This document shows, piece by piece, positions 3 through 56,101 of a stretch of 60,829 bases of DNA. The stretch is from positions 1 to 60,829 of the forward strand of contig CAZXQY010000004.1 in NCBI GenBank assembly GCA_964642505.1. Direction: 5' to 3'. The position numbers and the translations under genes were made by a program. Within the stretch, counting starts at the first letter, position 1. Every line of letters starts with the position of its first letter. Under the pieces are notes generated by a model. That model ran no database searches. It worked only from the letters and a program-made list of their open reading frames with translations, and had not been told where the DNA came from. Origin of the DNA: an uncultured Gammaproteobacteria bacterium. GTDB taxonomy: Bacteria; Pseudomonadota; Gammaproteobacteria; Ga0077536.

Positions 3-1229
3 ATCAGTATGTTGCATGTTGTGGGCTCTGTGTCCCATGGAGCTAGAGCTAGAGTGACAACCGTAATCGTCGGAATATTAGCGGTCGTTGGTATTTGGTT
101 GATGCTTCAAATCAAAGTGGGAAACCCGGTAGAGGGAAGTAATCTTCTAAAAGAAACCTCCGATTTTAATACCGCCGTACGAGCGGTTAATGCTCATTTC
201 CCAGGTCTTATGACTTTGGAGATAGTGTTTGAAGGCAAGGAGAAGAATAACCGTTTCGTCGCAAGTTCTCCGGAAGCTCAAGCGACGATGTTCCAATTGC
301 AGAGGTTTTTGGAGGTGCAGGATCCTCCGCCGGAAGCTACGTTATCGTTTCCAGACTATTTGCCTGAGGTAAATCGTTTGTTTTCAGGAGGGAACCCTAA
401 ATGGGCGCCTCTCGATGCGAAGGTTGAATCTGTAAATGCGGCGGTTAACGCTCTCATGGTCGGATCTAGCCCGAAGGCGTATTCCCACGTGACTGATTTC
501 ACGTTCTCTAACGGAACGCTATCTCTTTGGTACAAAGATAACAAACAAAAAACAGTTGATACTGCCATTCACCAAACCAAAGCTGGCCTTGAAGTTGTGG
601 GATTGGACCACGAGGACTACCAAATTCGGCTGGGTACTGGGGCTATCGCTTTGCAACAATCGGTAAACGATACCGTGGACAGATATCAATGGACGATATT
701 GTTTTGGCTAAATGTAGTTATTCTGTTTACCTGCAGTTTTTCGTACCGCTCAGTAGTGGCCGGGATTTTGTTGTTGCTGCCGGTTAATTTTTCCAATGTC
801 CTCTTGGCATCTGTGATGGTATTGATGGGTATCGGGTTGGATGTGAATAGCTTGCCGATCGCAGCGATTGGGATTGGTGTGGGGATAGATTATGGTATCT
901 ATCTCCTGAGTCGCATCTGCGAGGAGTTTAGAGAAAATCAGGATCATGGGGAAGCCATCCAACGTGCGGTTACGACCACTGGAAAGGCGATCTTTTTTAC
1001 GGCGACCATCGTTTTGATTGGAATTCTTCCCTGGTATTTTCTGTCTGAACTGAAATTCCTGGCGGACATGGGGTTGTTATTGGTGATGATCATGTTGATT
1101 AATATGGTAATAGCGCTGGTGGTATTACCGCTTCTGGTTTATTTGGTTAAGCCGAAGTTTATCGAACGGGAGCATTTGATAATTTCCGAAAACGTCGACT
1201 TGTCGGAAATAATGGGTAGGACGCAGTAG
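3..1229 (+). CDS. MMPL/RND-family inner-membrane transporter, C-terminal half (5'-truncated by window edge)
   Basis: Frame open from position 3; periplasmic loop followed by several TM helices with RND/MMPL motifs GIGVGIDYGIY and TTGKAIFFTA. Confidence 0.85.
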   Translation: MSMLHVVGSVSHGARARVTTVIVGILAVVGIWLMLQIKVGNPVEGSNLLKETSDFNTAVRAVNAHFPGLMTLEIVFEGKEKNNRFVASSPEAQATMFQLQRFLEVQDPPPEATLSFPDYLPEVNRLFSGGNPKWAPLDAKVESVNAAVNALMVGSSPKAYSHVTDFTFSNGTLSLWYKDNKQKTVDTAIHQTKAGLEVVGLDHEDYQIRLGTGAIALQQSVNDTVDRYQWTILFWLNVVILFTCSFSYRSVVAGILLLLPVNFSNVLLASVMVLMGIGLDVNSLPIAAIGIGVGIDYGIYLLSRICEEFRENQDHGEAIQRAVTTTGKAIFFTATIVLIGILPWYFLSELKFLADMGLLLVMIMLINMVIALVVLPLLVYLVKPKFIEREHLIISENVDLSEIMGRTQ

Positions 1230-1252
1230 GCGTATATCAAAACCAAACTTAA

Positions 1253-2299
1253 ATGGAATTTGAAATCATGAAAAATAATTGTTGGAGTTTAAAAGTCATT
1301 TCATTTTTTGGGATCGTAGCGGCGGTATCGTTGGCTGCGTTCGCGGATGGACACGGAGAGAGTGAGGAGGCTGTTCATATAATCCGAAGTGGCATACCGC
1401 ATGACGCGCTCTATGCTCTAGAGATGGATGGCAAATGGGGATTGGCCGTAGGTAATTTCGGATTGATGTTGGAAACGTCTGACGGGGGCGAATCTTGGAC
1501 TTTAGTGCCGCCTGTCAAGGAATCAAATGGGGAAACTTTAAAGAGCGCACTTTTGGCGGTAGCTCGCGATGGTGAGAACGTTATCCTAACGGGGCAGCAA
1601 GGTCTTGTCGTTACTAGACAGGGGTCGGCAGATTGGGAAGTGCAAGATAGTGGGCTAGATGCCAGATTGTTAAATGTTGATATCGCTGGAGGACTGACGA
1701 TGGCAGTGGGTGAGTTCGGTTTTATCGGACGTTCTGTCGATGGCGGTAAGAGTTGGAAACAAGTAAGTGTCAATTGGGAAAGATTCAATGACGAAGGCTA
1801 TGAACCGCACTTATATGATGTTGTGATTCAAGCTAACGGCGTGGTGTTAATAGCTGGAGAGTTTGGCTTAATCCTTCGATCGACTGACGGTGGTATGAAT
1901 TTCGATGCTGCCAATCGAGGGGAACAATCTGTATTTGATATTCATCTGGCCGAGGACGGGACAAGGAATGGATTCGCGGTTGGACAAGAGGGCTTGGTAT
2001 TGAAAACATCGGACGCCGGGGCTTCGTGGACCAAACTTGCGAAAGCCACAAACGCCAATCTCTTAGGGGTCTGGAGTGGGCATGACGAAGTCGTGATAAC
2101 TGGTATAAGAGAGCTCCTTCGGTCGAGTGACGGAGGATCGACTTTTCAAAGTGGCCAGACGGACATACAGATCGGGCGGAATTGGTTCCAAGGTGTTGCT
2201 TCGGGTACAGCGGAAAAAAATTCTGGTGTCGGAGTTTTGGCAGAAGAATCTGTCTATATAGTAGGGCATCAAGGAAGTATTGCCCGGATAGTGAAATAG
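1253..2299 (+). CDS. YCF48-like / BNR-repeat beta-propeller periplasmic protein
   Basis: Signal peptide; repeated Asp-box motifs (TSDGGESW, SVDGGKSW, STDGGMNF, TSDAGASW, SSDGGSTF); typical partner of RND/DUF1302/DUF1329; alternative start 1268. Confidence 0.85.
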   Translation: MEFEIMKNNCWSLKVISFFGIVAAVSLAAFADGHGESEEAVHIIRSGIPHDALYALEMDGKWGLAVGNFGLMLETSDGGESWTLVPPVKESNGETLKSALLAVARDGENVILTGQQGLVVTRQGSADWEVQDSGLDARLLNVDIAGGLTMAVGEFGFIGRSVDGGKSWKQVSVNWERFNDEGYEPHLYDVVIQANGVVLIAGEFGLILRSTDGGMNFDAANRGEQSVFDIHLAEDGTRNGFAVGQEGLVLKTSDAGASWTKLAKATNANLLGVWSGHDEVVITGIRELLRSSDGGSTFQSGQTDIQIGRNWFQGVASGTAEKNSGVGVLAEESVYIVGHQGSIARIVK

Positions 2300-2454
2300 C
2301 GCCCAACAGGTTTAGAGAGGATTTGCCGAAGATTCGGTTTTCATAGCCGAAACCCACAGTTTGGTGTATTTAATGTTTGATGTGATTAAGTCTTAAATGA
2401 TTGATTGCTGGATATTAACGGACCGCTAAGAACCCGCTGAAATTCCCTTTATAT

Positions 2455-2469
2455 TGCTGCAATGCAGTA
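2455..2469. promoter_or_regulatory. Palindromic operator candidate TGCTGCA-A-TGCAGTA (contains CTGC-N3-GCAG)
   Basis: Imperfect inverted repeat about 45 bp upstream of the TTGACA box. Confidence 0.3.
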
Positions 2470-2513
2470 TATTTAGGTGCGCAAAACTTACGCGAATTAA
2501 AGAATCGAAGCCG

Positions 2514-2542
2514 TTGACAAGCACCCTGAAATAAGCGCTAAT
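2514..2542 (+). promoter_or_regulatory. Sigma70-type promoter for the DUF1302 gene
   Basis: Perfect TTGACA (2514-2519), 17-nt spacer, GCTAAT (2537-2542). Confidence 0.55.
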
Positions 2543-2550
2543 ACACAATA

Positions 2551-2699
2551 CGGGGGACCGAGTATCCGCTAGCTTTGTTAAGCTAGGGGCTTGGATCGAG
2601 GGGAGTGCCTTTTTAATGTTTCATTAAGAAGCGCCCGCGAGGTCCGAATAATCGGATTCCTCAAAAACATAATAATTTAATGGTCAGAGGAGAGCGGGA
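2551..2699 (+). promoter_or_regulatory. Structured 5' leader (three consecutive hairpins) of the DUF1302 gene
   Basis: CTAGCTT-TGTT-AAGCTAG; TTAATG-TTT-CATTAA with extended GU-containing stem; GAGG-TCCGA-ATAA-TCGGA-TT-CCTC; RBS GAGGA at 2687-2691. Confidence 0.5.
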
Positions 2700-5162
2700 G
2701 TGAGAAAACACACAATCGCGCGGAGTTTAATCTCAGGTATTGCTGTCGGTGGTATCCTTTTTGCAGGAACCGTATCGGCAGTTGATTGGAACATAACTGG
2801 ATTTTTCCGACAGGAGATAGCGTATAGTCTCCACGATGATGGGAACCAGAATAACACAATGGGTAACCCATTTAATCATCGAATCGTTCCGCAGATAACT
2901 TCTGCGGCTTTCATGAATGATGCAACCCTGCAGAACGGCTTGAATGCAAACGCTAGAGCTGCGACGACGGTTTTTAATTCTAGAGCAAATGGAATTCCAG
3001 GCGGCCTTCTGCCCGGCGGATTGTTTGCAAGTGGTGAGTTGGCTAAGGATGCCTTCACACTCAATGCAAACGGATCGCATAATCGGGTCACAGGTGTCTT
3101 GCCAGCGGGTTCTTTTACCAGTTCGCCAGTATCTTGTAAATTCGGTACTTCGGGTGGTAGAGACATTACCAACGGCAGAAACCGAGGTATTCTAGGGCTT
3201 GGATCGCCGCAAGTTGGACAAGTGGATGTACCCTTCCCGCTCATGATGTGTCCTAATGGACAAGGTTCGACGCAGGGTAACGCTGGTCTTTCCCAAATAG
3301 TAGGGCTGACTCTGAATAATGGAGCCATTGTACGGGGACCTGCGCCAGCTATAGGGTTGCCAAATACAGGTACTGACTTTTCTGCTTCACACGCTAATCA
3401 GAGTGCTGGGGAAGCGATTTCCCAGGCGGGTCTAGCGCTGAGCGATGAAATCGATTTCAACGCTTTCAATTCTCGAGTTGAAGTGGATGTACAGGGACAG
3501 TTCACGCCGGACTTAGCGATGTTTATGAAGGTTCGCGCATACTTTGATGCGACGAGAAACTTTGTAGATGGGGGCACATCGGGAGGCATAGATGACCATT
3601 ATGCGAATCCATACTTTGGGAATCGCCGAGCCACTTTAACGGAGTGGAATAGCCCGGATGCAATCATCGATATCCCGTTCTTATACTTCGACTGGAGTAA
3701 GGGACCGTTATGGATACGTCTTGGTAACCAGGTTATCGCGTGGGGTGAAGCATATTTCTTTAGAACTATGGACGTAGCGAACGGCTTAGACTTAAGACGT
3801 CACTTGGTGTTGGGTCCAGGAGCGGAGGAGTATCAGGATCAACGTATCGGATCACCTGCCATACGGGTGAGTTACACCTTCAAAAATGGTTGGGAAATAG
3901 ATGCGTTTGCGCAAATGTTTTCCCCAACGATTCTGCCGGGTCAAAACACGCCTTACAACCTCGCTCCCACGACTATCTATATGGATGACTCCGATGGATA
4001 CGACGATGCTGAGGGTGCGATTAATTTCGGCTTTAAGTTAACGATGCCGCTGACAGACGCTTTCACTGCGATGATAGCTTATGCAAACCGACGTAATCCG
4101 GATGGCTATTTTACTGGAGCTGATGCACCAATTGTCCATCAAGGAAGGGCGAATCCTTTCTGTTTGAACCAGCACAATGCCACAAATAACGTCATGGCTG
4201 CATTAGGCAACCCGCACTTAGGTTTGGGTATGGAAGCGATGCCAACGTTGGATACTAGCCAACGTACGATGAGACGCGGTTGTGGCACGAGTTTCGCGCC
4301 AGATGATTTCGCCGCAAGCTCTTTAGAGTACTGGTATCGAATTCGTGACGGTCGTATCAACAGCAGCAATTACGTTTCGACTCAAGTCGACGAGTTTCCG
4401 GCTTCGCGTTGGGCGACTCGTGAAATATTTGGGTTTGGTAACGAGGGTAACTTTGTTGATACCTATCGAACATTGGAAGGTTTCCGTAGCTCGTTTGGTA
4501 ATATCACCCAATATGTGGGCCGGTATTTCAGACGGGAAAGAAACTACATGATTGGTGGTAACTACATAATTACCGCCAATGATCCAAACTCGATTTTCGA
4601 CCAGTTGATTATTCGTGGTGAGGTGAACTGGACGCCTAATAAAGCGTTTACGAATGACCTCAGTTTCAACTTCACAGAGAAGGACGATATTGTGTCGTCG
4701 TTGATTTTTGAGAAGTACCACAGATTCAGTATGGATTTCCCTGCGACTTATATGGTCTTGCAGTGGATGCACCGTACAGAATCCGACATGTTTGGCCGAG
4801 ATCTAGATAAGCAAGATACTAGAAAGATTTCGGACTTTATGGATCCTACAACGGGTGCTTTCACGGCTTGTGCGTTTGACAATGCCTGTGACGATCCTCG
4901 AGGTGACAGCAGTGCTAATTACGTGGTGTTCGCGTTTCAACAACCTTTTCCAAATCTGATTTGGAGAGCGGATTTTGCCATTATGGTTGATGTTGCGGGC
5001 GGTTACCTCGTTCAGCCTGGAATAAGATATCGTCCGTCGGCTAAGTACCAATGGGACTTGTACGCGACGATGATTAACTCACCGGGTGGTGATAACGATA
5101 CGGTTACGGAGAGCTTAGATTGGGCGGATGAAATATTCGTTCGATTTACATATTTCTTCTAA
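2700..5162 (+). CDS. DUF1302-family outer-membrane beta-barrel protein
   Basis: GTG start with RBS; signal peptide; motifs RLGNQVIAWGEA and DVANGLDLRRH; C-terminal RFTYFF (terminal Phe typical of BAM substrates); genomic context. Confidence 0.8.
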   Translation: MRKHTIARSLISGIAVGGILFAGTVSAVDWNITGFFRQEIAYSLHDDGNQNNTMGNPFNHRIVPQITSAAFMNDATLQNGLNANARAATTVFNSRANGIPGGLLPGGLFASGELAKDAFTLNANGSHNRVTGVLPAGSFTSSPVSCKFGTSGGRDITNGRNRGILGLGSPQVGQVDVPFPLMMCPNGQGSTQGNAGLSQIVGLTLNNGAIVRGPAPAIGLPNTGTDFSASHANQSAGEAISQAGLALSDEIDFNAFNSRVEVDVQGQFTPDLAMFMKVRAYFDATRNFVDGGTSGGIDDHYANPYFGNRRATLTEWNSPDAIIDIPFLYFDWSKGPLWIRLGNQVIAWGEAYFFRTMDVANGLDLRRHLVLGPGAEEYQDQRIGSPAIRVSYTFKNGWEIDAFAQMFSPTILPGQNTPYNLAPTTIYMDDSDGYDDAEGAINFGFKLTMPLTDAFTAMIAYANRRNPDGYFTGADAPIVHQGRANPFCLNQHNATNNVMAALGNPHLGLGMEAMPTLDTSQRTMRRGCGTSFAPDDFAASSLEYWYRIRDGRINSSNYVSTQVDEFPASRWATREIFGFGNEGNFVDTYRTLEGFRSSFGNITQYVGRYFRRERNYMIGGNYIITANDPNSIFDQLIIRGEVNWTPNKAFTNDLSFNFTEKDDIVSSLIFEKYHRFSMDFPATYMVLQWMHRTESDMFGRDLDKQDTRKISDFMDPTTGAFTACAFDNACDDPRGDSSANYVVFAFQQPFPNLIWRADFAIMVDVAGGYLVQPGIRYRPSAKYQWDLYATMINSPGGDNDTVTESLDWADEIFVRFTYFF

Positions 5163-5189
5163 ACCGAAAGTTAAGAAGCCTTACTTTTT

Positions 5190-5218
5190 AGAGCCGGCCA
5201 TGTGCCGGCTCTTTTTTT
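5190..5218 (+). terminator. Rho-independent terminator
   Basis: AGAGCCGGC-CATGT-GCCGGCTCT followed by a T-run. Confidence 0.9.
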
Positions 5219-5410
5219 GGTCTGGCAACATGTCTAGGGACAGATTGGTCTCAGCGAGTTTCGGTGGTGTATATTTCCAATGTAAATAATTAATATTTCC
5301 GTAGGCATCTTTGTAGGTTTTGTCTTAGAGTTTGGTGCTATTTCGTTATAGACTAACGTTATGCCCTTTAGAAAGAGATTAGTGAACAATAGTTAAACGA
5401 GAAACAAACA

Positions 5411-6322
5411 ATGAACAAAGCGATCTTTCCATTGAAGATTTTGATTTTTTTTATACTAGCTGGCTCGGTGTTCGCACAGGAAGCTGGTGATGATTCTGAT
5501 TCTGTAACGTCAGAGACCGCAACTTCTCAAACTCCGGCAGTAGGGAATAGTCTGGAAAATAAACAAGAAACAAATATTGACGGGCCACCTAGTAGTGAGA
5601 ATTCAGAAGTAGTGCCAACTGACGATTCTACTCCCAGCGTGATTCCAGGCGTAACGCCATTACTTGAAGAAGAGGAGAGTGCGGGTTTTATCGTTGATTT
5701 TTATCGAGGGATAAAGACTTTATTAGTTCTGGGAGGGCCAGTTGTATGGATTCTTCTAGTCGTATCAATACTCGGTTTGACGCTAGCCCTAACGAAATTT
5801 CTTCAGTTTTCTAGGACTAATGTTGTGGCAATTAAAGTGATAGATGACGCTATCTCCCTTTGGTTGGAAGGAAATATCGCGAAAGGTAGCGGAAATCTAG
5901 AACGTTCAGCCATCCCGATTGCCGCAGATATAAAATATGGTCTTGAAATGAGAGGGACACTCGATCAGGAATCACTTCAGGATGAAATGATTAGAAGATC
6001 GTCTTCGTTTCTTAGGGAGTATTCTCACAATCTCAAGCCGTTGGAGTTGATTTACTATCTTGCCCCCGTCATGGGGTTGTTGGGAACTGTGCTCGGGATG
6101 ATAGACGCCTTCAGAGGGCTTGCGGTGACCGCTGGCGCTGCAGGCGAATCCTCTGCTCTAGCTAGTGGGATCTGGGAAGCTTTATTGACGACGGCAGTTG
6201 GATTGTCGATTGCTATTCCTTTTGCTGTGATGCATGCGATTTTAGAAACGAAGCTTGATACTCTAACTGAGCAAGTTGGAGATATGATCACTCGTGTTTG
6301 CTCGAGGAATGAGGTCAGCTAG
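5411..6322 (+). CDS. exbB: MotA/TolQ/ExbB proton-channel family protein with N-terminal signal peptide and acidic extension
   Basis: APVMGLLGTVLGMI and GIWEALLTTAVGL motifs. Confidence 0.85.
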   Translation: MNKAIFPLKILIFFILAGSVFAQEAGDDSDSVTSETATSQTPAVGNSLENKQETNIDGPPSSENSEVVPTDDSTPSVIPGVTPLLEEEESAGFIVDFYRGIKTLLVLGGPVVWILLVVSILGLTLALTKFLQFSRTNVVAIKVIDDAISLWLEGNIAKGSGNLERSAIPIAADIKYGLEMRGTLDQESLQDEMIRRSSSFLREYSHNLKPLELIYYLAPVMGLLGTVLGMIDAFRGLAVTAGAAGESSALASGIWEALLTTAVGLSIAIPFAVMHAILETKLDTLTEQVGDMITRVCSRNEVS

Positions 6323-6324
6323 CG

Positions 6325-6753
6325 TTGAATATGCAGGTCGCGTTGTTGGGGAATAGGAAAACCAGGAGGCGGTCTGGAAGAATGTCCCTTACCCCGCTCA
6401 TTGACTGCGTTTTCATTTTATTAGTTTTTTTCATGTTGCAGACCAATTTTTTAAGGCCGCGTGCGATAGAGTTCTCTCAATCCGCTTCTAGCGCTCAAAT
6501 CGATAGTGAAACGCCTTTAATAGCCATAGAGCTTCGACTAGATGGAACGATCTGGCTCAATGGAGTGGGAAGTAGCATGGAAGGACTCACGTCCTATGCT
6601 GCCAGCCTTACCGAACCGAGCCAAAGCCGAGTAATGCTTGCCGTTGATCCCCAGGTTAAATTGCAGGCTGCCGTCGATATTATGGACATGCTAAATACGA
6701 ATCAAATTTTCAATATTTCGTTGGCGGCTGCCCGTCGCTTTGAAGATGACTGA
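6325..6753 (+). CDS. exbD: ExbD/TolR family protein (Asp-type)
   Basis: LTPLIDCVFILLVFFML TM motif; alternative start 6331. Confidence 0.85.
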   Translation: MNMQVALLGNRKTRRRSGRMSLTPLIDCVFILLVFFMLQTNFLRPRAIEFSQSASSAQIDSETPLIAIELRLDGTIWLNGVGSSMEGLTSYAASLTEPSQSRVMLAVDPQVKLQAAVDIMDMLNTNQIFNISLAAARRFEDD

Positions 6754-6770
6754 TTAGGGTTGGGATATAA

Positions 6771-7211
6771 ATGAAAATTCGCAGCAGACGGCATACCATG
6801 GAAAGACTAACGGAGAAAGTTACTGGGAAAAGATCTGCTCGGGAAGAGAATGTCATCCCTATGATTAACATCATTTTTCTCCTACTCCTGTATTTTATGG
6901 TAGTGGGAAATTTATCACCCGATTATAATGTTAATCCTCCCTTCGCGTCTCAGGAGGCTGAGTCGTCATCGCTTGTACCAACGGTAAGTGTTACAAAAGA
7001 AGGGCAGCTTAGATTCGAAAATGTTCCTGTAAGCTGGGAAGAGCTGACATCTAGGCTCAGCGGTATCAGCGACTATGAAAAAATAAAAATTTATGCAGAT
7101 GCCGAGTCGGATGCCCTAACTATTTCGGAAATAATGAAAACTGCAGCAAATGCTGGGATTTTACAGTTTATTTTAGTTACTCAAAAAAAAATATCGGATG
7201 AATTAGAATGA
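6771..7211 (+). CDS. exbD: ExbD/TolR family protein (Asn-type)
   Basis: VIPMINIIFLLLLYFMV TM motif; C-terminal IYADAES. Confidence 0.8.
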   Translation: MKIRSRRHTMERLTEKVTGKRSAREENVIPMINIIFLLLLYFMVVGNLSPDYNVNPPFASQEAESSSLVPTVSVTKEGQLRFENVPVSWEELTSRLSGISDYEKIKIYADAESDALTISEIMKTAANAGILQFILVTQKKISDELE

Positions 7212-8326
7212 AATATTCATCTAGGCGCGTTGTTATTTTGGTTGGACTGTTAGTTGCTTCGAGTATTATCCATGCCATTGTTTCATGGCAGGTGGGTCGA
7301 AAAATAGATGGACCGGAGAAAGTGCTTCCTCCTGAAGAGGAGGTTGTGCAAATAGTTATGGATAAGCCACCGGAACCAGAACTAGAAAAAACTCCGCCGC
7401 CAGAAGAGCAATTGGAATTCGAAGAGGAATTGGAATTCGATCCGCCTGAAATATTGTTAGCCCCTAAGTCGGTGGCGCCACCTCCGCCGGATGTGACGGT
7501 TGCTTTAAAAGCTCAATCAGGAGGGTTCCAGGGTATAGACATTCCTACGGGTATAGCCGCAGTGCCGCTAAGTGAAGGCTCAGGTATTGGCGGTTTCAAA
7601 ACTGGTATAGGCAATGGTTTGGGAGATGGGACGGCGAGATTCGCTGCCTACATAGCAGGTCTACGAGAAGCAGGATTGGATGTAGTGTTTGCGATCGATG
7701 CTACGGGTTCAATGGATTGGGTGATAGATGAAGTTAGGGATAGGATCCAGGACATTGCTCAAACCGTAAGATCTCTGGTTCCGATTGCGCGATTTGGCGT
7801 GGTTGCTTACCGTGATCATAACGATCCAGAGTTTACTACGAGGGTGCACGAATTAACCTACAGCACAGCTAAAATAAAGCGTTTTATGGCGCAACTCGAG
7901 GCGAAAGGCGGTGGCGATTGGTTTGAAGCGATAGATGCTGGAATCAGGGATGCGATAGAGCAATCGGGATGGCGGATAGGGGCTAGGCGTCTGATTATTG
8001 TGGTTGGCGATGCGCCACTTAAGCAGGGTCAATTGGGTAAGGTAGTTCGTCTAGCTGAGCAGTTTGGTCGATCAGGTGGAACGATATCGACGTTGGATGT
8101 AAGTGATCAGGCTAATCCTTCGTTACTTGAAGCGAAGGTTGGGAGAAAAGTAGCCAGACCTCTCTATCGCAGTGCCCCCATGCATTCTTTTCTTGTTATA
8201 GGAGAAGCAGGGGGAGGAGACGCTGCTACTCTCGACGGAGAGCTAAAATTAACCAAACGTTTGGTGAAGCTTATTATGGGCGATCAGTTTGCAAATGAGA
8301 TGCAGGCACTTTTGGATGCGTTGTGA
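7208..8326 (+). CDS. Membrane-anchored Pro/Glu-rich protein with C-terminal von Willebrand A (vWA) domain
   Basis: N-terminal TM containing SSIIHA; PPEPE/PPPEE/APPPPD linker; vWA motifs DVVFAIDATGSM, VVAYRD, GGGDWFEA, VVGDAP; 4-bp overlap with exbD. Confidence 0.8.
   Translation: MKYSSRRVVILVGLLVASSIIHAIVSWQVGRKIDGPEKVLPPEEEVVQIVMDKPPEPELEKTPPPEEQLEFEEELEFDPPEILLAPKSVAPPPPDVTVALKAQSGGFQGIDIPTGIAAVPLSEGSGIGGFKTGIGNGLGDGTARFAAYIAGLREAGLDVVFAIDATGSMDWVIDEVRDRIQDIAQTVRSLVPIARFGVVAYRDHNDPEFTTRVHELTYSTAKIKRFMAQLEAKGGGDWFEAIDAGIRDAIEQSGWRIGARRLIIVVGDAPLKQGQLGKVVRLAEQFGRSGGTISTLDVSDQANPSLLEAKVGRKVARPLYRSAPMHSFLVIGEAGGGDAATLDGELKLTKRLVKLIMGDQFANEMQALLDAL
7403..7438 (+). repeat. 18-bp tandem duplication inside the vWA protein linker (EEQLEF/EEELEF)
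   Basis: GAAGAGCAATTGGAATTC GAAGAGGAATTGGAATTC, one mismatch. Confidence 0.85.
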
Positions 8327-8342
8327 TACGGGAACATTTATT

Positions 8343-10565
8343 ATGACGAAGCTACTTGAATACCCCATTTGTTTTCTATTTGCTACGTTGATATTAGTAG
8401 GTATATCAGGTGATACGAATGCTTCGTCTAAGAGTGCGATTGCCGGGGCAAGCAAATTGTCAGCTAAATTGGACGGCGACTTAGGGGCGACCGATCTTTT
8501 TGATATTGCTAATAAGGTCGGACCCTTTATAGATGAAATCAGAAGGGCTGACCCGAGTGCTCGCTCGTTAAAAGAAATGAAACGTATTTTGAATGACATG
8601 AGGCAAAAGACATCCTCCAAGGTTGCGGAGATAGAGGCGTCGATGGGGGATAATGAAGGTCAGTTGGAACGACTCTATCGTTCGCAAGAATGGGATGATA
8701 TGAGTTTTGCGTTGGCTGCTTTTCCATATTGGAGAGCGTGGATTGATTTAGAATTAGCTTATCGAGAGCAAAATATCGGGATAATGGGGGCAGAAAAAAC
8801 GACTGCTTTACTACCGGCGGAAAAAGGCTTTAGAGGGGCTTCTTTGCAGTTTTATAGGCCAGGCTTGGTCTATGGCGGTTGGTTAGGTTTAGGTTATATA
8901 GAGCTGGCAAAAAAAAAGTTTGAGAGAGCCCGCCAAATTTTTGAGAGTTTAGAAGTTGCGCTAGCCGGCGAAGAGTCTCCGATAATGGAGGTCGTACGGG
9001 CTGAACTCGAATTACTCGACGCTCGGAGTGGTAAGGTTTCTAATGTAACCGATCTCGGGTTGATCGACGATGATAAAGCGAGGATATTGCGACTTGAAGC
9101 CTTTGGGCTTTTAAAGGAGAGCAGGGCTTCTGGTGGGAGACCGTTAGAGGCTGCTAAACGACTTAATGCCCTGATAAAGGCAGGCTATATCGACCAATCT
9201 TTGATTAACGATATGATGATTTATGCTCAGGAAATATCAGGAGTCAAAGTTGGTTATTATACCGACCTTGCGGGCGCTGAATTTGCTTTAAATAACAACC
9301 ATTATTATAACGCGATGCAAAAGTATCAGTACTTCTTTAGCAATAACATCGCCCCACGGAAAGTTGATTTTAGTAACTATCGGTATCGTTGGGCATTAAG
9401 TGCTTTCAAGGCGAAAATTTACCAACCTGCGATCGATATCTTAGAAAAGTTGCAACGTAAAAAGAATCTGAACCAGGAACTTGACGTAGCTTCGGCCAAG
9501 TTACTTTATGCAATCTATGCAGCTAAGGAAGATGGCGGAAGTTCGTCTGCTCGAAATAGAAAAAATCTTAGGAAAGCTGCGAGGCGTTTTGTTAGGAAAA
9601 GTCCAAATGATCCAGACGCCGACAGCGCTCGCTTGTTGATAGCTCAAACTACTAGTAATGCGAAATCTGCTTTACGATCTCTCGACCAGATTTCTTCTAA
9701 CAAACTAAAAGGAGATGTTGGAAGAACAGCTTTCACGATACTGGCAAAGGAATTCAGTCGATATGTGAGACGTTCCAGTATAAAAAAGGCTAAAGGATTG
9801 GCAACCGAAGGTATCGCCGCATTCAAAGAATTGCCGAAAACCGATAGATCTGACCCGTTTTATTTTTCTGTTGTTTTACAAATGAGGGCTCTAGTTGACC
9901 CTAAACCAGAGGATGTCCTCGTCGCGATTTCACAAATAGAGGAAAAAGAACCTAAGAACCTAGATATTAGGAGGGCGCTCGTTTGGTCCAGGTTACAAAT
10001 CTATAACCGGATGGGTGGCACTAATGTTGAAAATTATATAAGGACCCTAGCGTCCTCTAAAATACCTGGCTGGCAGATGGAGTTCTTATACCCTTTTGTG
10101 GATGGGATGAAAAATGCCAGCTTACGCCTCAGCTTGGCGAAGCTGCTACATCCTTCAGCTAAATCACAGCCTGATATGGATAAGAGAATTTGGTCGACCA
10201 TAATTGATAGTATGCTTGAGTCGGGTTTGGTTGAGGATGCCTATGGAGATGCTATTAAATTTACCAAAGCCTATCCCTCTTCAGGGGATGCGTGGAGGTT
10301 GCTCGGTCGTAGCGCGGAGCGAGTAGATAAACCCTTTGAGGCTGATAGAGCATGGGGGGTGATCACTAAGAAGGCTATTCCTACCCAGGAAGTATGGTGG
10401 GAAGGTATGATAAGTCGGGCTAGAATCCGATCGGATCGGAGAATGGATCAGGCATGTAGTCTTTTGAAAAAAATGATTAGAAGTGAAGAGCTTGTTCCTA
10501 AAACTCAGAAAAAACAGTTCGGACAGTTGAGGTCTAGTCTAGACTGTTCGGTGGAGACTGGATAG
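8343..10565 (+). CDS. Large exported helical-repeat (TPR-like) protein
   Basis: Likely start MTKLLE with signal-like hydrophobic stretch (ORF track starts at 8289); TPR-like segments WLGLGYIELAKKKFERARQIF, YRWALSAFKAKIYQPAIDIL, YPSSGDAWRLLG. Confidence 0.6.
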   Translation: MTKLLEYPICFLFATLILVGISGDTNASSKSAIAGASKLSAKLDGDLGATDLFDIANKVGPFIDEIRRADPSARSLKEMKRILNDMRQKTSSKVAEIEASMGDNEGQLERLYRSQEWDDMSFALAAFPYWRAWIDLELAYREQNIGIMGAEKTTALLPAEKGFRGASLQFYRPGLVYGGWLGLGYIELAKKKFERARQIFESLEVALAGEESPIMEVVRAELELLDARSGKVSNVTDLGLIDDDKARILRLEAFGLLKESRASGGRPLEAAKRLNALIKAGYIDQSLINDMMIYAQEISGVKVGYYTDLAGAEFALNNNHYYNAMQKYQYFFSNNIAPRKVDFSNYRYRWALSAFKAKIYQPAIDILEKLQRKKNLNQELDVASAKLLYAIYAAKEDGGSSSARNRKNLRKAARRFVRKSPNDPDADSARLLIAQTTSNAKSALRSLDQISSNKLKGDVGRTAFTILAKEFSRYVRRSSIKKAKGLATEGIAAFKELPKTDRSDPFYFSVVLQMRALVDPKPEDVLVAISQIEEKEPKNLDIRRALVWSRLQIYNRMGGTNVENYIRTLASSKIPGWQMEFLYPFVDGMKNASLRLSLAKLLHPSAKSQPDMDKRIWSTIIDSMLESGLVEDAYGDAIKFTKAYPSSGDAWRLLGRSAERVDKPFEADRAWGVITKKAIPTQEVWWEGMISRARIRSDRRMDQACSLLKKMIRSEELVPKTQKKQFGQLRSSLDCSVETG

Positions 10566-10622
10566 GGGTAGATTTACGGTTGATCCTGATCGATAAAATA
10601 AACCTGGATAGAGGTAAAAACG

Positions 10623-12005
10623 ATGGTTCATATAAAAAAGTATGATGTAGATTTTAGTAAGAGAAAGTTTTTAGAGAATACCGCCGCTGGGTTTTTAGGC
10701 GCGGGTGTACTTTGCCCAGTGTGGAGCGCGCTTGCTGAAAACGGAGATTTTTCTGCTTCGTATCCTGACGAGTTACTATCTATCGAAAACTATACGAAAG
10801 GGGCACTTAAAACAGGAGATACTATAGATGCTAGCAACGTAGATTTGCTTCAAGACCTTTTAGATGGCGTTCGCTATACCCAAATCAAACAGATGGGCAG
10901 AAAATTGGAGATCGTTCCGGTTACTACCGACATGACGAAACTGAGTCCGGTGGAGTATACTGAGGCAACCCTGCGTAACAAAGGTTTGGCGAAGTTTGAT
11001 TCGAAAGGGAATGTTGTTGTGGGAGGCGGGAAACCTTGGATAGGAGGAACACCTTTTCCGGAACCGACCAGCGGGGTAGAGTTATTTGCGAACATTACCT
11101 TAACGTGGGGTAGGCACGATGTTTCTTTTTATCCTGTGAAAAGTTATGAACAAGATAAAAACGGTAGAATAGGGTACAAGTATGAATTGGGATGGATAGA
11201 ATTTGCCCCTGTCGGTCGTGTGAAGGTTGAACCGACGCCATATTGGCCGGGTCACGAGGATAAATTGCGATATCAATCTGTTTTTTTCACGATCCCTCAA
11301 GATTATAAAGGTTCGGCATTTCTAAATACCTGGCATTACGATCAAACAAGATTTCCGGAATTATTGGGTTATCTACCGCAATTCAAACGAGTTCGAAATT
11401 TCCCTACAAGCCAACGTTTTGAACCCTTACTACCTGGGTCGCATTTGTATTTCTCGGATGCTTGGGCAGCAGGAGATCCTTACCTCACTTGGGGTAACTT
11501 CAAGATAATAGGACGTGGGCCGTTTTTGGCAGGACTCACGGAGAATTGGGATTCCAGTGATGAGAACTGGGAAGGTACTACTCATGGGGGCGCTAAAGGC
11601 GATACTTTTTGGGATACCAAAGTGGAGCTAATACCGGAGGCCATCGTTGCTGAAGCTGAACCGACAGGTTACGCAAGGGCGCCTGTAAGCAAAAAGCGGG
11701 TCTGGTTCGACGCTCGAACAGGGTTGCCTCTGATGATGCTTACGTTCGATCGAAAAGGGGAGATGTGGAAAACATTTGATGGTGCCTATTCTGTTTATGA
11801 CAACAAGGGTAAACAGGTTATGGACGGAGCGTACCCATATTGGTCTTGGACTCACGTACACGCTTTCGACATACAGAGCAGCCATATGTCCAGACTCAAG
11901 CAAGTTCGAAAGATAGCCGGAGGACATACTTGGTGGGTCAATAAAGGGACAGAGATTTATAACAAATTTTTGACGAAGTCTGCTTTACGAAGAATGGGAA
12001 CATAG
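10623..12005 (+). CDS. DUF1329-family periplasmic protein (LolA-like fold) with Tat-like signal
   Basis: SKRKFL plus hydrophobic leader; GDTIDASNV, PFPEP, YLPQFKRVR, FDRKGEMWK motifs typical of DUF1329. Confidence 0.8.
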   Translation: MVHIKKYDVDFSKRKFLENTAAGFLGAGVLCPVWSALAENGDFSASYPDELLSIENYTKGALKTGDTIDASNVDLLQDLLDGVRYTQIKQMGRKLEIVPVTTDMTKLSPVEYTEATLRNKGLAKFDSKGNVVVGGGKPWIGGTPFPEPTSGVELFANITLTWGRHDVSFYPVKSYEQDKNGRIGYKYELGWIEFAPVGRVKVEPTPYWPGHEDKLRYQSVFFTIPQDYKGSAFLNTWHYDQTRFPELLGYLPQFKRVRNFPTSQRFEPLLPGSHLYFSDAWAAGDPYLTWGNFKIIGRGPFLAGLTENWDSSDENWEGTTHGGAKGDTFWDTKVELIPEAIVAEAEPTGYARAPVSKKRVWFDARTGLPLMMLTFDRKGEMWKTFDGAYSVYDNKGKQVMDGAYPYWSWTHVHAFDIQSSHMSRLKQVRKIAGGHTWWVNKGTEIYNKFLTKSALRRMGT

Positions 12006-27993: not shown

Positions 27994-28005
27994 CGTAGAG
28001 ATCCT

Positions 28006-55700: not shown

Positions 55701-56101
55701 AAAATCCGGCCATTTTTTTTACGGGTTATGGAAAAATTCGCCCCATTAACAACTATTTTTTGCAGACTAAGTCGAGCAGACATGATGGTTTGAAAGAGGC
55801 TTATTGCCACTTCTACTTTATCTGCTGTAAAAATAGTTGCGTTAGTTGAGCGTTTGTAGATCTTGAAATTCCCTATGCGAATTGTAGGGTTCCAACCTGC
55901 CCAGCCTCCTTCTAAATTTTTAAAGGAGGTATGGTGCCCCAAGGACTCTTGTATATACGACGAAATTAAGGATTCCTTTTCAATAACGAAAGGGAAAATC
56001 AGTCTAATAAATATTAGAAGGGCGGCAACGGTCGTTCCACCCAGTAGTATACTGGAATATTGAAGCCCCATAATTGAAGAGCGAATCGTTTTTATAGTCA
56101 T
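52751..56101 (-). CDS. yhdP: YhdP/AsmA2-family phospholipid bridge protein
   Basis: N-terminal TM anchor, [47 protein letters not shown]. Confidence 0.85.

What the first reader, a model, noticed from the sequence alone, without database searches (positions are those of the whole stretch)
3..12005. Candidate new envelope machine: RND/YCF48/DUF1302/DUF1329 module with an embedded ExbB-ExbD-ExbD-vWA-TPR motor cassette
Seen: nine co-oriented genes in the order MMPL/RND, BNR propeller, OM barrel DUF1302, ExbB, ExbD, ExbD, TM-proline-vWA, TPR-like, DUF1329. Gaps inside the motor block are -4 to 17 bp, and DUF1329 follows 57 bp after it. Known: RND+YCF48+DUF1302+DUF1329 recur as an uncharacterised four-gene module, with DUF1302 and DUF1329 usually adjacent. 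ExbBD-type complexes transduce PMF to the outer membrane in the Ton, Tol and Agl systems. Inference: the motor is dedicated to this module and may energise gating or substrate extraction at the DUF1302 barrel, with DUF1329 as periplasmic shuttle and RND as inner-membrane step. That would be a Ton/Tol-like system with no TonB-dependent receptor, TolB or Pal in the locus.
Basis: partly seen in the sequence, partly recalled or inferred. Interest (0 to 1): 0.88.

Follow-up and report, generated by a model that had tools for sequence, protein, structure and literature searches.

The report
vWA-headed proton motor inside lipid-carrier module
A TonB-like, proton-driven motor whose pulling arm ends in a von Willebrand A domain sits inside a gene module for an outer-membrane barrel, a LolA-like carrier and an RND pump, and the same pairing recurs in distant bacteria, which suggests what this recently described but function-less motor class acts on.

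Summary

**The motor is not a new kind.** ExbB, ExbD (Asp), ExbD' (Asn), a TM(SxxxH)-Pro-rich-vWA protein and a TPR solenoid match the "vWA force transducer" class. That class was proposed computationally in 2025 (PMC12204202, passages read). Its function is unknown, and its main text does not mention DUF1302, DUF1329, RND or LolA.

**The embedding is what is new.**
- In 80 loci from uncultured Gammaproteobacteria, 55 were informative on both flanks. Of these, 45 have the vWA-TPR pair beside DUF1302 and/or DUF1329, and 32 have motor, barrel and carrier together.
- In distant, differently ordered cassettes from metagenomes, a LolA-like gene directly follows the TPR gene in 7 of 16 informative contigs. 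Others are flanked by DUF1302, DUF1329 or RND genes.

**The motor is not exclusive to the module.** Ten of the 55 loci have neither DUF1302 nor DUF1329 nearby; in nine of them the motor cassette stands alone. Some loci keep vWA-TPR without a motor. This genome has about 16 DUF1329 genes and one motor.

**Best reading (about 0.55):** a proton-motive-force-driven transducer acting on a LolA-like carrier/DUF1302 barrel route for hydrophobic cargo. No physical contact was shown.

The parts
3..1229 (+). C-terminal 408 codons of an RND transporter of the MMPL/HAE3/HpnN-like kind. The gene is cut by the contig start.
   Evidence: Pfam MMPL 88.9 bits. NCBIfam HAE3, MMPL and HpnN hits are all far below their cut-offs. 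The N-terminal 426 codons are on contig C142:2526-3803, running into that contig's end.
1253..2299 (+). BNR/YCF48-like beta-propeller protein
   Evidence: Pfam PSII_BNR 54.6 bits. Conserved next to the RND gene in relatives.
2700..5162 (+). DUF1302 outer-membrane barrel protein (820 aa) with a variable insert at about residues 68-245
   Evidence: Pfam DUF1302 80.8 bits over residues 267-820. tblastn to relatives splits into q1-67 and q246-820. The protein ends in ...TYFF.
5190..5212 (+). Terminator-like hairpin followed by a T7 run, between DUF1302 and ExbB
   Evidence: Consensus scan: 9 pairs, 7 G-C, tail TTTTTTTGGTC. This is a pattern match only, not proof of termination.
5411..6322 (+). ExbB/TolQ-like stator subunit (303 aa) with a signal peptide and an acidic N-terminal extension found only in this genus
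   Evidence: Pfam MotA_ExbB 89 bits. TolQ and ExbB equivalogs are far below cut-off (53.8 against 221; 47.8 against 206). T226, T261 and E256 are conserved in 51-56 of 56 sequences. Relatives outside the genus have a 219-aa form.
6325..6753 (+). ExbD/TolR-like subunit 1, with the transmembrane Asp
   Evidence: Pfam ExbD 67.5 bits. Asp27 is present in 59 of 59 orthologues.
6771..7211 (+). ExbD/TolR-like subunit 2, with Asn in place of the transmembrane Asp
   Evidence: Pfam ExbD 65.5 bits. Asn33 is present in 60 of 62 orthologues; the other two have Ser and Asp.
7208..8326 (+). Force-transducer candidate: N-terminal TM helix with S18-x3-H22, a ~105-residue Pro/Glu-rich disordered linker, and a C-terminal vWA domain with a D164-x-T-x-S168 MIDAS-like motif
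   Evidence: Pfam VWA_4 and VWA. S18, H22, D164, T166, S168 and D268 are invariant in 17 of 17 sequences. AF2 model: helix 5-34, pLDDT below 50 for 35-52 and 73-141, vWA fold 141-372. Foldseek hits include BatB 3ibs, integrin I domains and Rpn10.
8343..10565 (+). Secreted 740-aa TPR-like superhelical scaffold. It is always paired with the vWA gene.
   Evidence: Signal-peptide-like N-terminus. AF2 pLDDT 90.1, about 38 helices. Foldseek hits are TPR scaffolds, including the C. jejuni flagellar periplasmic scaffold 9hmf_K. C705 and C735 are invariant in 32 of 32 sequences. The gene is present in 80 of 80 related loci.
10623..12005 (+). DUF1329 / LolA-like periplasmic protein with a Tat-like signal (SKRKFL here, SRRxF in relatives)
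   Evidence: Pfam DUF1329 185.3 and LolA_like 31.2 bits. The [RK]RxF[LIVM] motif is in 51 of 53 orthologues downstream of the TPR gene. It lies 57 bp after the TPR gene, and no terminator-like site was called in the gap.

Best explanation
**What it is.** The region holds two adjacent units of one envelope system.
- Unit 1: RND, BNR propeller and DUF1302 barrel. It ends at a terminator-like hairpin.
- Unit 2: a proton-motive-force (PMF) motor cassette plus its likely client. The genes are ExbB, an ExbD carrying the proton-binding Asp, an ExbD' with Asn, the vWA protein, the TPR protein and DUF1329.

**Shown or read from sequence.**
- The vWA protein is built like TonB/TolA. It has a TM helix with the Ser-x3-His motor-docking motif and a ~105-residue Pro/Glu-rich periplasm-spanning linker.
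- Its head is a vWA domain with a MIDAS-like site, not a TonB C-terminal domain.
- The TPR protein is a secreted 740-residue superhelix that always accompanies it.

**Inferred steps.**
1. An ExbB pentamer with an ExbD/ExbD' heterodimer converts proton flow into movement.
2. The vWA protein docks on it through S18/H22 and transmits tension across the periplasm.
3. The vWA head, together with the TPR scaffold, engages the LolA-like DUF1329 carrier and/or the DUF1302 barrel.
4. That tension loads or unloads hydrophobic cargo (lipid, fatty ester or alkane-like) at the outer membrane.
5. The RND pump and BNR propeller perform the inner-membrane step.

The motor is probably shared in trans, as TonB is, rather than private to this one module.
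For: **The cassette fits the published class.**
- All features of the 'vWA force transducer' class (PMC12204202) are present.
- An A1 profile search of 1.84 billion representatives gave 254 proteins at E<=1e-30. Of 73 hits 330-470 aa long, 59 have S-x3-H in a TM-like segment.

**Linkage in the gammaproteobacterial clade.**
- The vWA gene was found in 18 of 24 other genomes of the same family.
- Of 80 loci, 55 were informative on both sides: 32 have motor, DUF1302 and DUF1329; 45 have DUF1302 and/or DUF1329 beside vWA-TPR.
- vWA identity falls to 44% with the order kept, despite local insertions such as CobW, an AMP-binding enzyme or a second DUF1329.
- Within the genus, the three genomes without the vWA gene also lack a close DUF1329 orthologue.

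**Independent linkage in distant cassettes.** These have three other gene orders (V-e-d-d-T, e-d-V-T, and d'-d'-e' diverging from V-T).
- In 7 of 16 contigs with at least 1.8 kb after the TPR gene, a 545-600-aa gene with a Pfam LolA_like domain follows directly. Six were Pfam-checked, at 42-122 bits.
- L185 reads DUF1302-DUF1329-V-ExbB-ExbD-ExbD-TPR-LolA_like.
- L184 reads BNR-like (own HMM only)-MMPL-DUF1302-...-V.
- L197 reads DUF1302-HEAT-V.
- L172-174 have an AcrB-type RND gene directly upstream of V.

**Operon layout.** There is a hairpin after DUF1302, and only 57 bp with no called terminator before DUF1329.

**Published context for the module.**
- Cofitness of DUF1302, DUF1329, BNR and RND genes (10.1101/072470).
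- A Tween 20 / fatty-ester phenotype (10.1101/2020.07.04.188060).
- DUF1329 predicted to dock either on DUF1302 or on BNR+RND (PMC10866462; PMC13499233).
Against: - **Stand-alone cassettes.** 9 of 55 informative loci have the whole cassette with no module gene nearby. All five such genomes searched hold a single full-length vWA copy, and the four whose DUF1329 regions were fetched hold only distant modules at 23-31% identity.
- **Loci without a motor.** 6 of 55 keep vWA-TPR between DUF1302 and DUF1329 with no ExbB/ExbD, so a local motor is dispensable.
- **Distant contigs without the carrier.** 9 of 16 informative distant contigs have no LolA-like gene after the TPR gene. For 6 of these no module-like neighbour was detected at all.
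- **One motor, many carriers.** About 16 DUF1329 genes share this one cassette in the genome.
- **Non-independence.** The gammaproteobacterial loci are kin, so their counts overstate independent support.
- **Transcription.** The hairpin at 5190-5212 suggests the barrel/RND unit is transcribed apart from the motor.
- **Missing evidence.** There is no expression data and no shown protein contact. Cargo and direction are unknown.
- **MIDAS may be incomplete.** The usual Thr position reads GGGD.
Confidence: 0.55

Rival explanations
1. The ExbB-ExbD-ExbD'-vWA-TPR cassette is an autonomous envelope system, for example outer-membrane tethering, adhesion or gliding-type force transmission as PMC12204202 suggests. 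It merely landed between DUF1302 and DUF1329 in an ancestor of this clade and was inherited there, with no mechanistic coupling.
For: - The cassette stands alone in 9 of 55 informative loci, and vWA-TPR stands alone in 1.
- All five stand-alone genomes searched have a single full-length vWA copy, and the four inspected further have no close orthologue of the embedded module.
- There is a terminator-like hairpin between DUF1302 and ExbB.
- The clade's loci are related, so conserved synteny could be inheritance (quick tree).
- 6 of 16 informative distant contigs show no module-like neighbour.
Against: - Distant cassettes with three different internal gene orders still carry a LolA-like gene right after the TPR gene (7 of 16), or are flanked by DUF1302, DUF1329 or RND genes. 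Hitch-hiking in one lineage does not explain that.
- In the quick tree the stand-alone copies are derived clades nested among embedded ones.
- Loci that lost the motor keep vWA-TPR exactly between DUF1302 and DUF1329 (6 of 55).
- Even the stand-alone copies lie 9-12 kb upstream of a divergent DUF1329-like/DUF1302-like/RND set.
Confidence: 0.2
2. The vWA and TPR proteins serve biogenesis or quality control of the module rather than its transport cycle. Examples would be PMF-assisted docking of the Tat-exported DUF1329 onto the DUF1302 barrel, or removal of jammed carrier.
For: - TPR solenoids and vWA domains are typical assembly and adaptor modules; Foldseek hits are scaffolds.
- DUF1329 here carries a Tat-like signal (51 of 53 orthologues), so it would arrive folded.
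- vWA-TPR persists without a local motor in 6 of 55 loci.
Against: - S18 and H22 are invariant even in motor-less loci and in the motor-less paralogue, which argues for motor dependence.
- Three other Tat-type DUF1329 paralogues in this genome have no vWA-TPR beside them.
- Nothing distinguishes assembly from cycling at the sequence level.
Confidence: 0.12
3. The system is tied to metal supply rather than to hydrophobic cargo. The motor-vWA-TPR set would work with a COG0523 metallochaperone and a cofactor-loaded, Tat-exported DUF1329 in uptake or handling of a metal or metal complex.
For: - A CobW/COG0523 GTPase gene lies between the TPR gene and DUF1329 in 28 of the 53 loci that have DUF1329.
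- The DUF1329 signal is Tat-like.
- The vWA head has a metal-binding MIDAS-like motif.
Against: - The window itself has no CobW gene; the gap is 57 bp.
- No metal-binding motif was shown in DUF1329.
- Module phenotypes in print concern Tween 20 and fatty esters.
- LolA-like folds carry acyl chains (established knowledge of LolA/LolB, recalled).
- A MIDAS metal is structural for ligand binding, not cargo.
Confidence: 0.05

Closest known systems
vWA force transducers (PMC12204202, Mol Biol Evol 2025; passages read)
   Same: [quoted passage not shown] All are found here.
   Different: - Gene order here is ExbB-ExbD-ExbD'-vWA-TPR; the paper describes the TPR gene upstream in the PVC group.
- The paper gives no function or target and suggests gliding.
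- Its main text has 0 occurrences of DUF1302, DUF1329, RND or LolA. Its supplements could not be seen.
- Here the cassette is embedded in a DUF1302/DUF1329/BNR/RND module. In distant members it is followed by a LolA-like gene whose consensus N-terminus is lipobox-like.
Ton system (ExbB-ExbD-TonB with TonB-dependent transporters)
   Same: MotA/ExbB and ExbD family stator, a TM Asp in one ExbD, an SxxxH anchor helix, and a Pro-rich periplasmic linker. PMF is presumably relayed to the outer membrane.
   Different: No TonB C-terminal domain and no TonB-dependent receptor among the nine products. The head is a vWA domain. ExbB and ExbD score far below the equivalog cut-offs. There are two different ExbD genes, one with Asn for Asp.
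Tol-Pal system (TolQ-TolR-TolA-TolB-Pal-CpoB)
   Same: Operon logic: stator, then transducer, then a periplasmic partner, with a TPR protein (CpoB) in the operon. TolA pulling TolB off Pal is the nearest analogy for a transducer acting on a soluble carrier that docks on an outer-membrane partner (established knowledge; analogy only).
   Different: No TolB, Pal or TolA C-terminal domain. The TPR protein is 740 aa, not CpoB-sized. The putative carrier is LolA-like and the outer-membrane partner is a DUF1302 barrel.
DUF1302/DUF1329/BNR/RND four-gene module (10.1101/072470; 10.1101/2020.07.04.188060; PMC10866462; PMC13499233; passages read)
   Same: The same four Pfam families are clustered. In those papers DUF1302 is predicted as an 18-stranded barrel, and DUF1329 as a LolA-like protein predicted to bind either the barrel or BNR+RND.
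   Different: In those descriptions DUF1302 and DUF1329 are adjacent and no motor is mentioned. Here five genes (ExbB, two ExbD, vWA, TPR) separate them.
Bat (aerotolerance) operon proteins BatA-BatE of Bacteroides
   Same: Membrane-anchored vWA proteins together with TPR proteins. BatB (3ibs) is among the best structural matches of the vWA head.
   Different: No MoxR ATPase or DUF58 gene in the locus. Bat operons are not described with ExbB/ExbD (recalled). The SxxxH anchor and motor linkage are specific to this system.
Agl-Glt gliding machinery of Myxococcus
   Same: A TolQR-like motor, TonB-like proteins, several TPR proteins and a vWA protein (CglB) in one trans-envelope force-transmitting system. 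Only the search listing and abstracts of PMC9946355 and PMC11761067 were seen.
   Different: In that system the vWA protein is an outer-membrane lipoprotein adhesin, not the inner-membrane-anchored transducer. No Glt barrels are present here, and the neighbours here are transport genes.

Membership tests
vWA force transducer class (PMC12204202) | N-terminal TM helix carrying the SHLS-type Ser-x3-His motor-docking motif | tested here: met
   S18 and H22 are invariant in 17 of 17 sequences. The helix spans residues 5-34 in the model. 59 of 73 unselected family hits of 330-470 aa have the motif in a TM-like segment. The later Leu and Ser of SHLS were not checked.
vWA force transducer class (PMC12204202) | Disordered or proline-rich periplasmic linker of about 100 residues | tested here: met
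   Residues 35-140 are Pro/Glu-rich, with pLDDT below 50 for 35-52 and 73-141. A conserved alternating hydrophobic stretch at about residues 53-60 (E-V-x-I) is a candidate 'motor box'. That is an inference.
vWA force transducer class (PMC12204202) | C-terminal vWA fold in place of a TonB/TolA C-terminal domain | tested here: met
   Pfam VWA_4, VWA and VWA_2. Foldseek probability 1.00 to BatB, integrin I domains and Rpn10.
vWA force transducer class (PMC12204202) | [quoted passage not shown] | tested here: met
   ExbD1 has Asp27 in 59 of 59 and ExbD2 has Asn33 in 60 of 62. The TPR gene is present in 80 of 80 loci.
vWA force transducer class (PMC12204202) | Predicted docking of the TM helix on the motor through the conserved His | not tested
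An ExbB5-ExbD2 assembly would also be close to the tool's size limit.
Ton system | TonB C-terminal domain and a TonB-dependent receptor as target | tested here: not met
   No TonB_C or TonB-dependent receptor family appears among the Pfam hits of the nine products.
Ton system | ExbB and ExbD equivalogs | tested here: not met
   NCBIfam ExbB scores 47.8 against a cut-off of 206.2, and ExbD_1 scores 24.8-32.2 against 152.95. Only the broad Pfam families are met.
Tol-Pal system | TolB, Pal and the TolA C-terminal domain in the operon | tested here: not met
   None appears among the Pfam or NCBIfam hits. TolQ scores 53.8 against 221 and TolR 47.1 against 127.3.
DUF1302/DUF1329/BNR/RND module | The four families clustered and co-oriented | tested here: met
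   The cluster recurs in relatives.
DUF1302/DUF1329/BNR/RND module | DUF1302 and DUF1329 adjacent; cofitness of the four genes | tested here: not met
   Adjacency is not met: five genes separate them here. Cofitness cannot be tested with these tools.
Bat aerotolerance operon | MoxR-type ATPase and DUF58 genes with BatA-E | tested here: not met
   Neither family appears among the nine products. The definition of the operon is recalled.

The most novel reading that the evidence does not exclude
A third kind of PMF-driven trans-envelope machine beside Ton and Tol. A vWA-headed transducer and a long TPR 'spring' would pull on LolA-like carriers, either DUF1329 docked on DUF1302 barrels or LolA-like lipoproteins in other phyla. 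This would move hydrophobic molecules between the outer membrane and an RND pump. One motor would serve many carrier/barrel paralogues, about 16 DUF1329 genes here, as one TonB serves many receptors. That would give the 2025 'vWA force transducers' their missing target and give the DUF1302/DUF1329 module its missing energy source.
Probability: 0.3. Interest if true: 0.85.

Novelty: new variant of a known kind. Interest (0 to 1): 0.7.

Why it matters
Two open questions meet in this locus.

- **What do vWA-headed TonB-like transducers do?** They were proposed in 2025 with no phenotype and no target.
- **How does the DUF1302/DUF1329/BNR/RND module work?** It is widespread and known only from cofitness and growth on Tween 20 or fatty esters. 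How it is energised at the outer membrane is unknown.

The recurrent linkage points to a LolA-like carrier as the client of the motor. The linkage is seen in one gammaproteobacterial clade and in distant cassettes with other gene orders. This turns both questions into concrete tests:
- deletion and cofitness experiments;
- point mutants H22, Asp27 and the MIDAS site;
- pull-downs;
- multimer models.

If true, it adds a PMF-powered route for hydrophobic cargo across the periplasm. That matters for lipid homeostasis and for uptake of hydrocarbons and lipids by marine bacteria. All evidence here is computational.

Tried and rejected
**Complex prediction.** vWA head (residues 141-372, alignment A1) with mature DUF1329 (residues 39-460, alignment A3). 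The verdict was 'no answer', score 0.01 against a mark of 0.32, and the controls were not run. This is neither for nor against binding.

**Expression.** No RNA holder was listed for window:5000-12100. The three metatranscriptome runs offered held next to none of its words.

**Profile-profile comparison.** The distant LolA-like proteins (A6) against the DUF1329 orthologues (A3) gave only 18% probability (E 0.0013) over the C-terminal 99 columns. I therefore call them 'LolA-like domain proteins' from their Pfam hits, not DUF1329 orthologues.

**My own iterated DUF1302 HMM stayed narrow.** It gave 25-26 hits. Absence of a DUF1302 call in distant contigs is weak evidence.

**The tree is the quick version.** The careful search did not finish. 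It is rooted at the midpoint only, so 'stand-alone copies are derived' is provisional.

**Rejected: a frameshift in the second TPR gene on contig C2.** The break coincides with a run of N in the assembly.

**Rejected: the Tat-like signal as a mark of the embedded DUF1329.** Three other paralogues (contigs C68, C18 and C3) have it too, making 4 of 16 in this genome.

**Rejected: Asp/Asn heterology of the two ExbD as a family-wide rule.** In distant cassettes some pairs are Asn/Asp and others are Asp/Asp.

**Literature searches for the link.**
- 'DUF1302'+'DUF1329': 15 papers, none with a motor in the passages I read.
- 'ExbB'+'ExbD'+'von Willebrand'+'TPR': 3 papers.
- 'vWA' / 'force transducer' / 'TolQ': 19 papers.
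- 'DUF1329'+'von Willebrand': 0 papers.
- 'LolA'+'von Willebrand'+'ExbD': 0 papers.
- The six-term search gave only PMC6304351 as relevant. It reports an MMPL-LolA-like fusion and a porin induced on n-C28 alkane, with no motor link.

Full report
**1.

The window is the start of contig C4 of a 2.6-Mb, 161-contig assembly that is 95% complete. Nine co-oriented ORFs occupy 3-12005. Pfam assigns them as follows:
- MMPL/RND: 88.9 bits
- PSII_BNR/YCF48: 54.6 bits
- DUF1302: 80.8 bits
- MotA_ExbB: 89 bits
- ExbD: 67.5 and 65.5 bits
- VWA_4 / VWA: 45.8 / 38.4 bits
- TPR-like protein: nothing above cut-off
- DUF1329 with LolA_like: 185.3 / 31.2 bits

The gaps are 2, 17, -4, 16 and 57 bp. The 16 bp takes the TPR start at the ATG at 8343, in front of a signal peptide.

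The RND gene is cut by the contig start. Its first 426 codons end contig C142.

After DUF1329 comes a convergent ABC-F ATPase. The rest of the window is housekeeping.

**2. Anatomy of the motor block.**

None of the ExbB or ExbD products reaches an NCBIfam equivalog cut-off. TolQ scores 53.8 against 221, ExbB 47.8 against 206, and TolR 47.1 against 127. They are stator proteins of the family, but neither the Ton nor the Tol orthologues.

- **ExbD1** keeps the transmembrane Asp (Asp27, 59 of 59 orthologues).
- **ExbD2** has Asn at that position (60 of 62).
- **ExbB** keeps T226, T261 and E256. That these equal the Thr ring and Glu of E. coli ExbB is recalled, not tested.
- **The vWA protein.**
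  - It has a positively charged N-terminus, a TM helix (5-34), a Pro/Glu-rich segment that AlphaFold leaves disordered (35-140), and a vWA fold (141-372).
  - The closest solved folds are BatB, integrin I domains and Rpn10.
  - In 17 orthologues and paralogues, S18, H22, the D164-x-T166-x-S168 motif and D268 are invariant.
- **The TPR-like protein.**
  - It has a signal peptide and two invariant C-terminal cysteines.
  - It folds with pLDDT 90.1 into a roughly 38-helix solenoid.
  - It resembles TPR scaffolds, including the periplasmic scaffold of the Campylobacter flagellar motor.

**3. The motor block is a member of a class already in print.**

[quoted passage not shown] Its features are:
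- a TM helix with the SHLS motif;
- a disordered or Pro-rich linker of about 100 residues;
- a vWA C-terminal domain;

The class was found in several phyla. Its function is unknown, no phenotype is reported, and gliding was suggested. Every feature I could test is met here.

A profile of the 17 vWA proteins was searched against 1.84 billion representatives.
- It gave 12,842 proteins at E<=0.001 and 254 at E<=1e-30.
- Of the 150 best, 96 have S-x3-H in a TM-like segment.
- Of the 73 that are 330-470 aa long, 59 do and 14 do not.

The main text of that paper holds no occurrence of DUF1302, DUF1329, RND or LolA. Its supplements were not available to me.

**4. Linkage inside the gammaproteobacterial clade.**

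The vWA gene was found in 18 of 24 other genomes of the same family. It was found in 0 of 16 genomes from 16 other families of the class (single-protein query).

A scan of species-representative genomes found 115 relatives. The 80 best loci are all from MAGs or otherwise uncultured records. I mapped them by tblastn with the window's proteins and those of five relatives.
- The TPR gene is present in 80 of 80 loci.
- All hits are co-oriented in 80 of 80 loci.

Fifty-five loci had enough flank on both sides:

| Arrangement | Loci |
|---|---|
| Motor + DUF1302 + DUF1329 | 32 |
| DUF1302 + DUF1329 without ExbB/ExbD | 6 |
| Motor + DUF1302 without DUF1329 | 3 |
| Motor + DUF1329 without DUF1302 | 2 |
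| vWA-TPR-DUF1329 only | 2 |
| Motor cassette with no module gene | 9 |
| vWA-TPR alone | 1 |

So 45 of 55 have a module gene at the vWA-TPR pair and 10 of 55 have none. The other 25 loci are cut by contig ends.

The order survives local change:
- a CobW/COG0523 GTPase sits between the TPR gene and DUF1329 in 28 of the 53 loci that have DUF1329;
- an acyl-CoA-synthetase-like gene is inserted in one locus;
- a second DUF1329 sits after the RND gene in seven loci.

In the window's genus, the vWA gene was found in G000 and G004.
- A 95%-identical DUF1329 lies at a contig end in G005.
- G001-G003 are 77-92% complete. G001 and G002 have no DUF1329 closer than 30-31% identity, and G003 had no match at the E<=1e-60 threshold used.

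These genomes are kin, so the counts are not independent events.

**5. The cassette is portable.**

The window's own genome has a second vWA-TPR pair on contig C2, with vWA 55% identical and S and H kept. It has no ExbB/ExbD beside it. Its flanks are a nucleoside transporter and HAD/NAMPT genes.

The stand-alone ExbB-ExbD-ExbD-vWA-TPR loci of other genomes sit in the same HAD/NAMPT neighbourhood. In a quick, midpoint-rooted tree they form derived clades among embedded copies.
- Five such genomes each hold one full-length vWA gene.
- In the four whose DUF1329 regions were fetched, only distant modules (23-31% identity) were found.

In all five genomes checked, including G000, a weak DUF1329-like hit lies 9-12 kb downstream of the stand-alone pair.
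- In G000 it is a DUF1329-like / DUF1302-like / MMPL set, by Pfam.
- In one other genome the same three kinds of gene were seen by tblastn only.
- This is one conserved synteny, so at most one event.

G000 holds about 16 DUF1329 ORFs. It has 5 Pfam-detectable DUF1302 matches and one motor cassette.

**6. Independent support from distant cassettes.**

An alignment of 11 distant family members was used to scan metagenome contigs. I had picked these from hits that carry the S-x3-H motif, so that motif is not evidence within this set.

The scan gave 410 relatives, of which 80 loci were kept. With HMMs built from my alignments:
- 22 loci belong to the gammaproteobacterial type and again show the embedded order;
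- 53 are distant;
- 5 lost their vWA call to overlapping hits.

The distant cassettes have three other orders: V-ExbB-ExbD-ExbD-T, ExbB-ExbD-V-T, and ExbD-ExbD-ExbB diverging from V-T.

Sixteen distant contigs have a TPR gene with at least 1.8 kb after it.
- In 7 of these a 545-600-aa gene follows directly.
- Six of the seven were checked in Pfam. All six carry LolA_like (42-122 bits), and three also pass the DUF1329 cut-off.
- Their consensus N-terminus is lipobox-like (L-x-G-C; the motif definition is recalled).
- In 9 of the 16 no such gene follows.

Other module genes flank distant cassettes:
- L185 (37% G+C): sigma-54 activator, DUF1302 (27.7 bits; cut-off 23.2), DUF1329 (140.7 bits), V, ExbB, ExbD, ExbD, TPR, LolA_like.
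- L184 (67% G+C): BNR-like (my HMM only), MMPL, DUF1302, then V.
- L197 (70% G+C): DUF1302, a HEAT-repeat protein, then V.
- L172-174: an AcrB-type RND gene (807 bits for L172; the other two by my HMM only) directly upstream of V.

Altogether 10 of the 16 informative contigs have a module-like neighbour and 6 have none detected. The persistence of a LolA-like or DUF1329 partner through different internal gene orders is my main reason to read the linkage as functional.

**7. Mechanism and its limits.**

Shown or directly read:
- the domain architectures;
- the invariant motifs;
- the conserved neighbourhoods;
- a terminator-like hairpin at 5190-5212 after DUF1302, with none called in the 57 bp before DUF1329 (a pattern match only).

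Inferred:
1. An ExbB pentamer with an ExbD1/ExbD2 heterodimer uses the PMF.
2. The vWA protein docks through S18/H22 and spans the periplasm.
3. Its head, with the TPR solenoid, engages the LolA-like carrier or the barrel.
4. The RND pump and BNR propeller do the inner-membrane step. This matches the published co-folding hypothesis that DUF1329 binds either DUF1302 or BNR+RND (PMC10866462; PMC13499233).

Hydrophobic cargo is suggested by:
- the Tween 20 / fatty-ester phenotypes of the module;
- the alkane-induced MMPL-LolA-like protein of Thalassolituus;
- the LolA fold itself.

Direction, cargo and contacts are unknown. The only contact test I could run gave no answer (see Tried and rejected). 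No RNA data were available.

**8. Verdict.**

A functional tie between motor and module is likely, but it is neither exclusive nor obligatory.
- The motor is a member of a class proposed in 2025, not a new kind.
- I found no print record of its union with a DUF1302/DUF1329/BNR/RND module, or more broadly with LolA-like proteins.
- That union gives both orphan systems a testable partner.
- I rate it a new variant of a known kind, interest 0.7.

Noticed in passing
L023, L027, L029, L033, L036, L038 (between the TPR and DUF1329 genes); 28 of the 80 loci L042-L121: A CobW/COG0523 GTPase gene (Pfam cobW 161-179 bits) is inserted between the TPR gene and DUF1329 in many relatives, always in that position. 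The window lacks it (57-bp gap). One locus (L038) also has an AMP-binding, acyl-CoA-synthetase-like gene there.
   Followed up: partly
window 10623-10750, and orthologues in L042-L120: The embedded DUF1329 has a twin-arginine-like signal (SRRxF[LIVM]) in 51 of 53 orthologues. In the window and its genus it reads SKRKF. Four of 16 DUF1329 paralogues of this genome (contigs C4, C68, C18, C3) have it, and the rest have Sec-type signals.
   Followed up: partly
G000 contig C2:47271-50598 (L016) and C2:59267-64885 (L122): A second vWA-TPR pair has no ExbB/ExbD beside it. A divergent DUF1329-like / DUF1302-like / MMPL set lies 9 kb downstream, beyond NAD- and nucleoside-salvage genes. The same spacing to a weak DUF1329-like hit recurs in four other genomes. 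The apparent break in that TPR gene coincides with a run of N.
   Followed up: partly
whole genome G000: There are about 16 DUF1329 ORFs in a 2.6-Mb genome but only 5 Pfam-detectable DUF1302 matches. This is a large expansion of the carrier family, or many barrels too divergent for the model.
   Followed up: no
window 5411-5700: In this genus only (G000 and G004), ExbB has a signal peptide and a ~75-residue acidic Ser/Thr/Pro-rich periplasmic extension (288-303 aa). Most other relatives have a 219-aa form (up to 241 aa by ORF call). Long ExbB forms are known elsewhere; for 10.1101/2021.04.21.440815 I saw the abstract only, in the listing.
   Followed up: no
window 2900-3435 (DUF1302 residues ~68-245): A Gly/Asn/Ser/Thr-rich insert of about 180 residues lies ahead of the Pfam-matched part of DUF1302. 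It is variable or absent in relatives: tblastn splits into q1-67 and q246-820.
   Followed up: no
L043:83-913, L046:246-1085, L100:844-1686 and others (upstream of the RND gene): A co-oriented ~276-280-aa gene with no Pfam family lies upstream of the RND gene in 8 of 20 full loci examined. It was not found on contig C142, which precedes the window.
   Followed up: partly
L143, L144, L152, L154, L156 versus L150, L157, L160, L168, L176, L180, L185, L189: In distant cassettes the first ExbD has Asn at the TM Asp position in some lineages and Asp in others. The Asp/Asn heterodimer is therefore lineage-specific, not universal.
   Followed up: partly
window 52751-56101 (- strand): A YhdP (AsmA-like) protein gene (Pfam YhdP 485.7 bits), from a family linked to intermembrane phospholipid transport (recalled). 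It is not linked to the cluster.
   Followed up: no
window 25711-30114 (- strand) and G000 C2:40818-44731: Two separate hydantoinase/oxoprolinase A+B gene pairs. The window's B subunit carries an acetone-carboxylase-gamma-like C-terminus.
   Followed up: no
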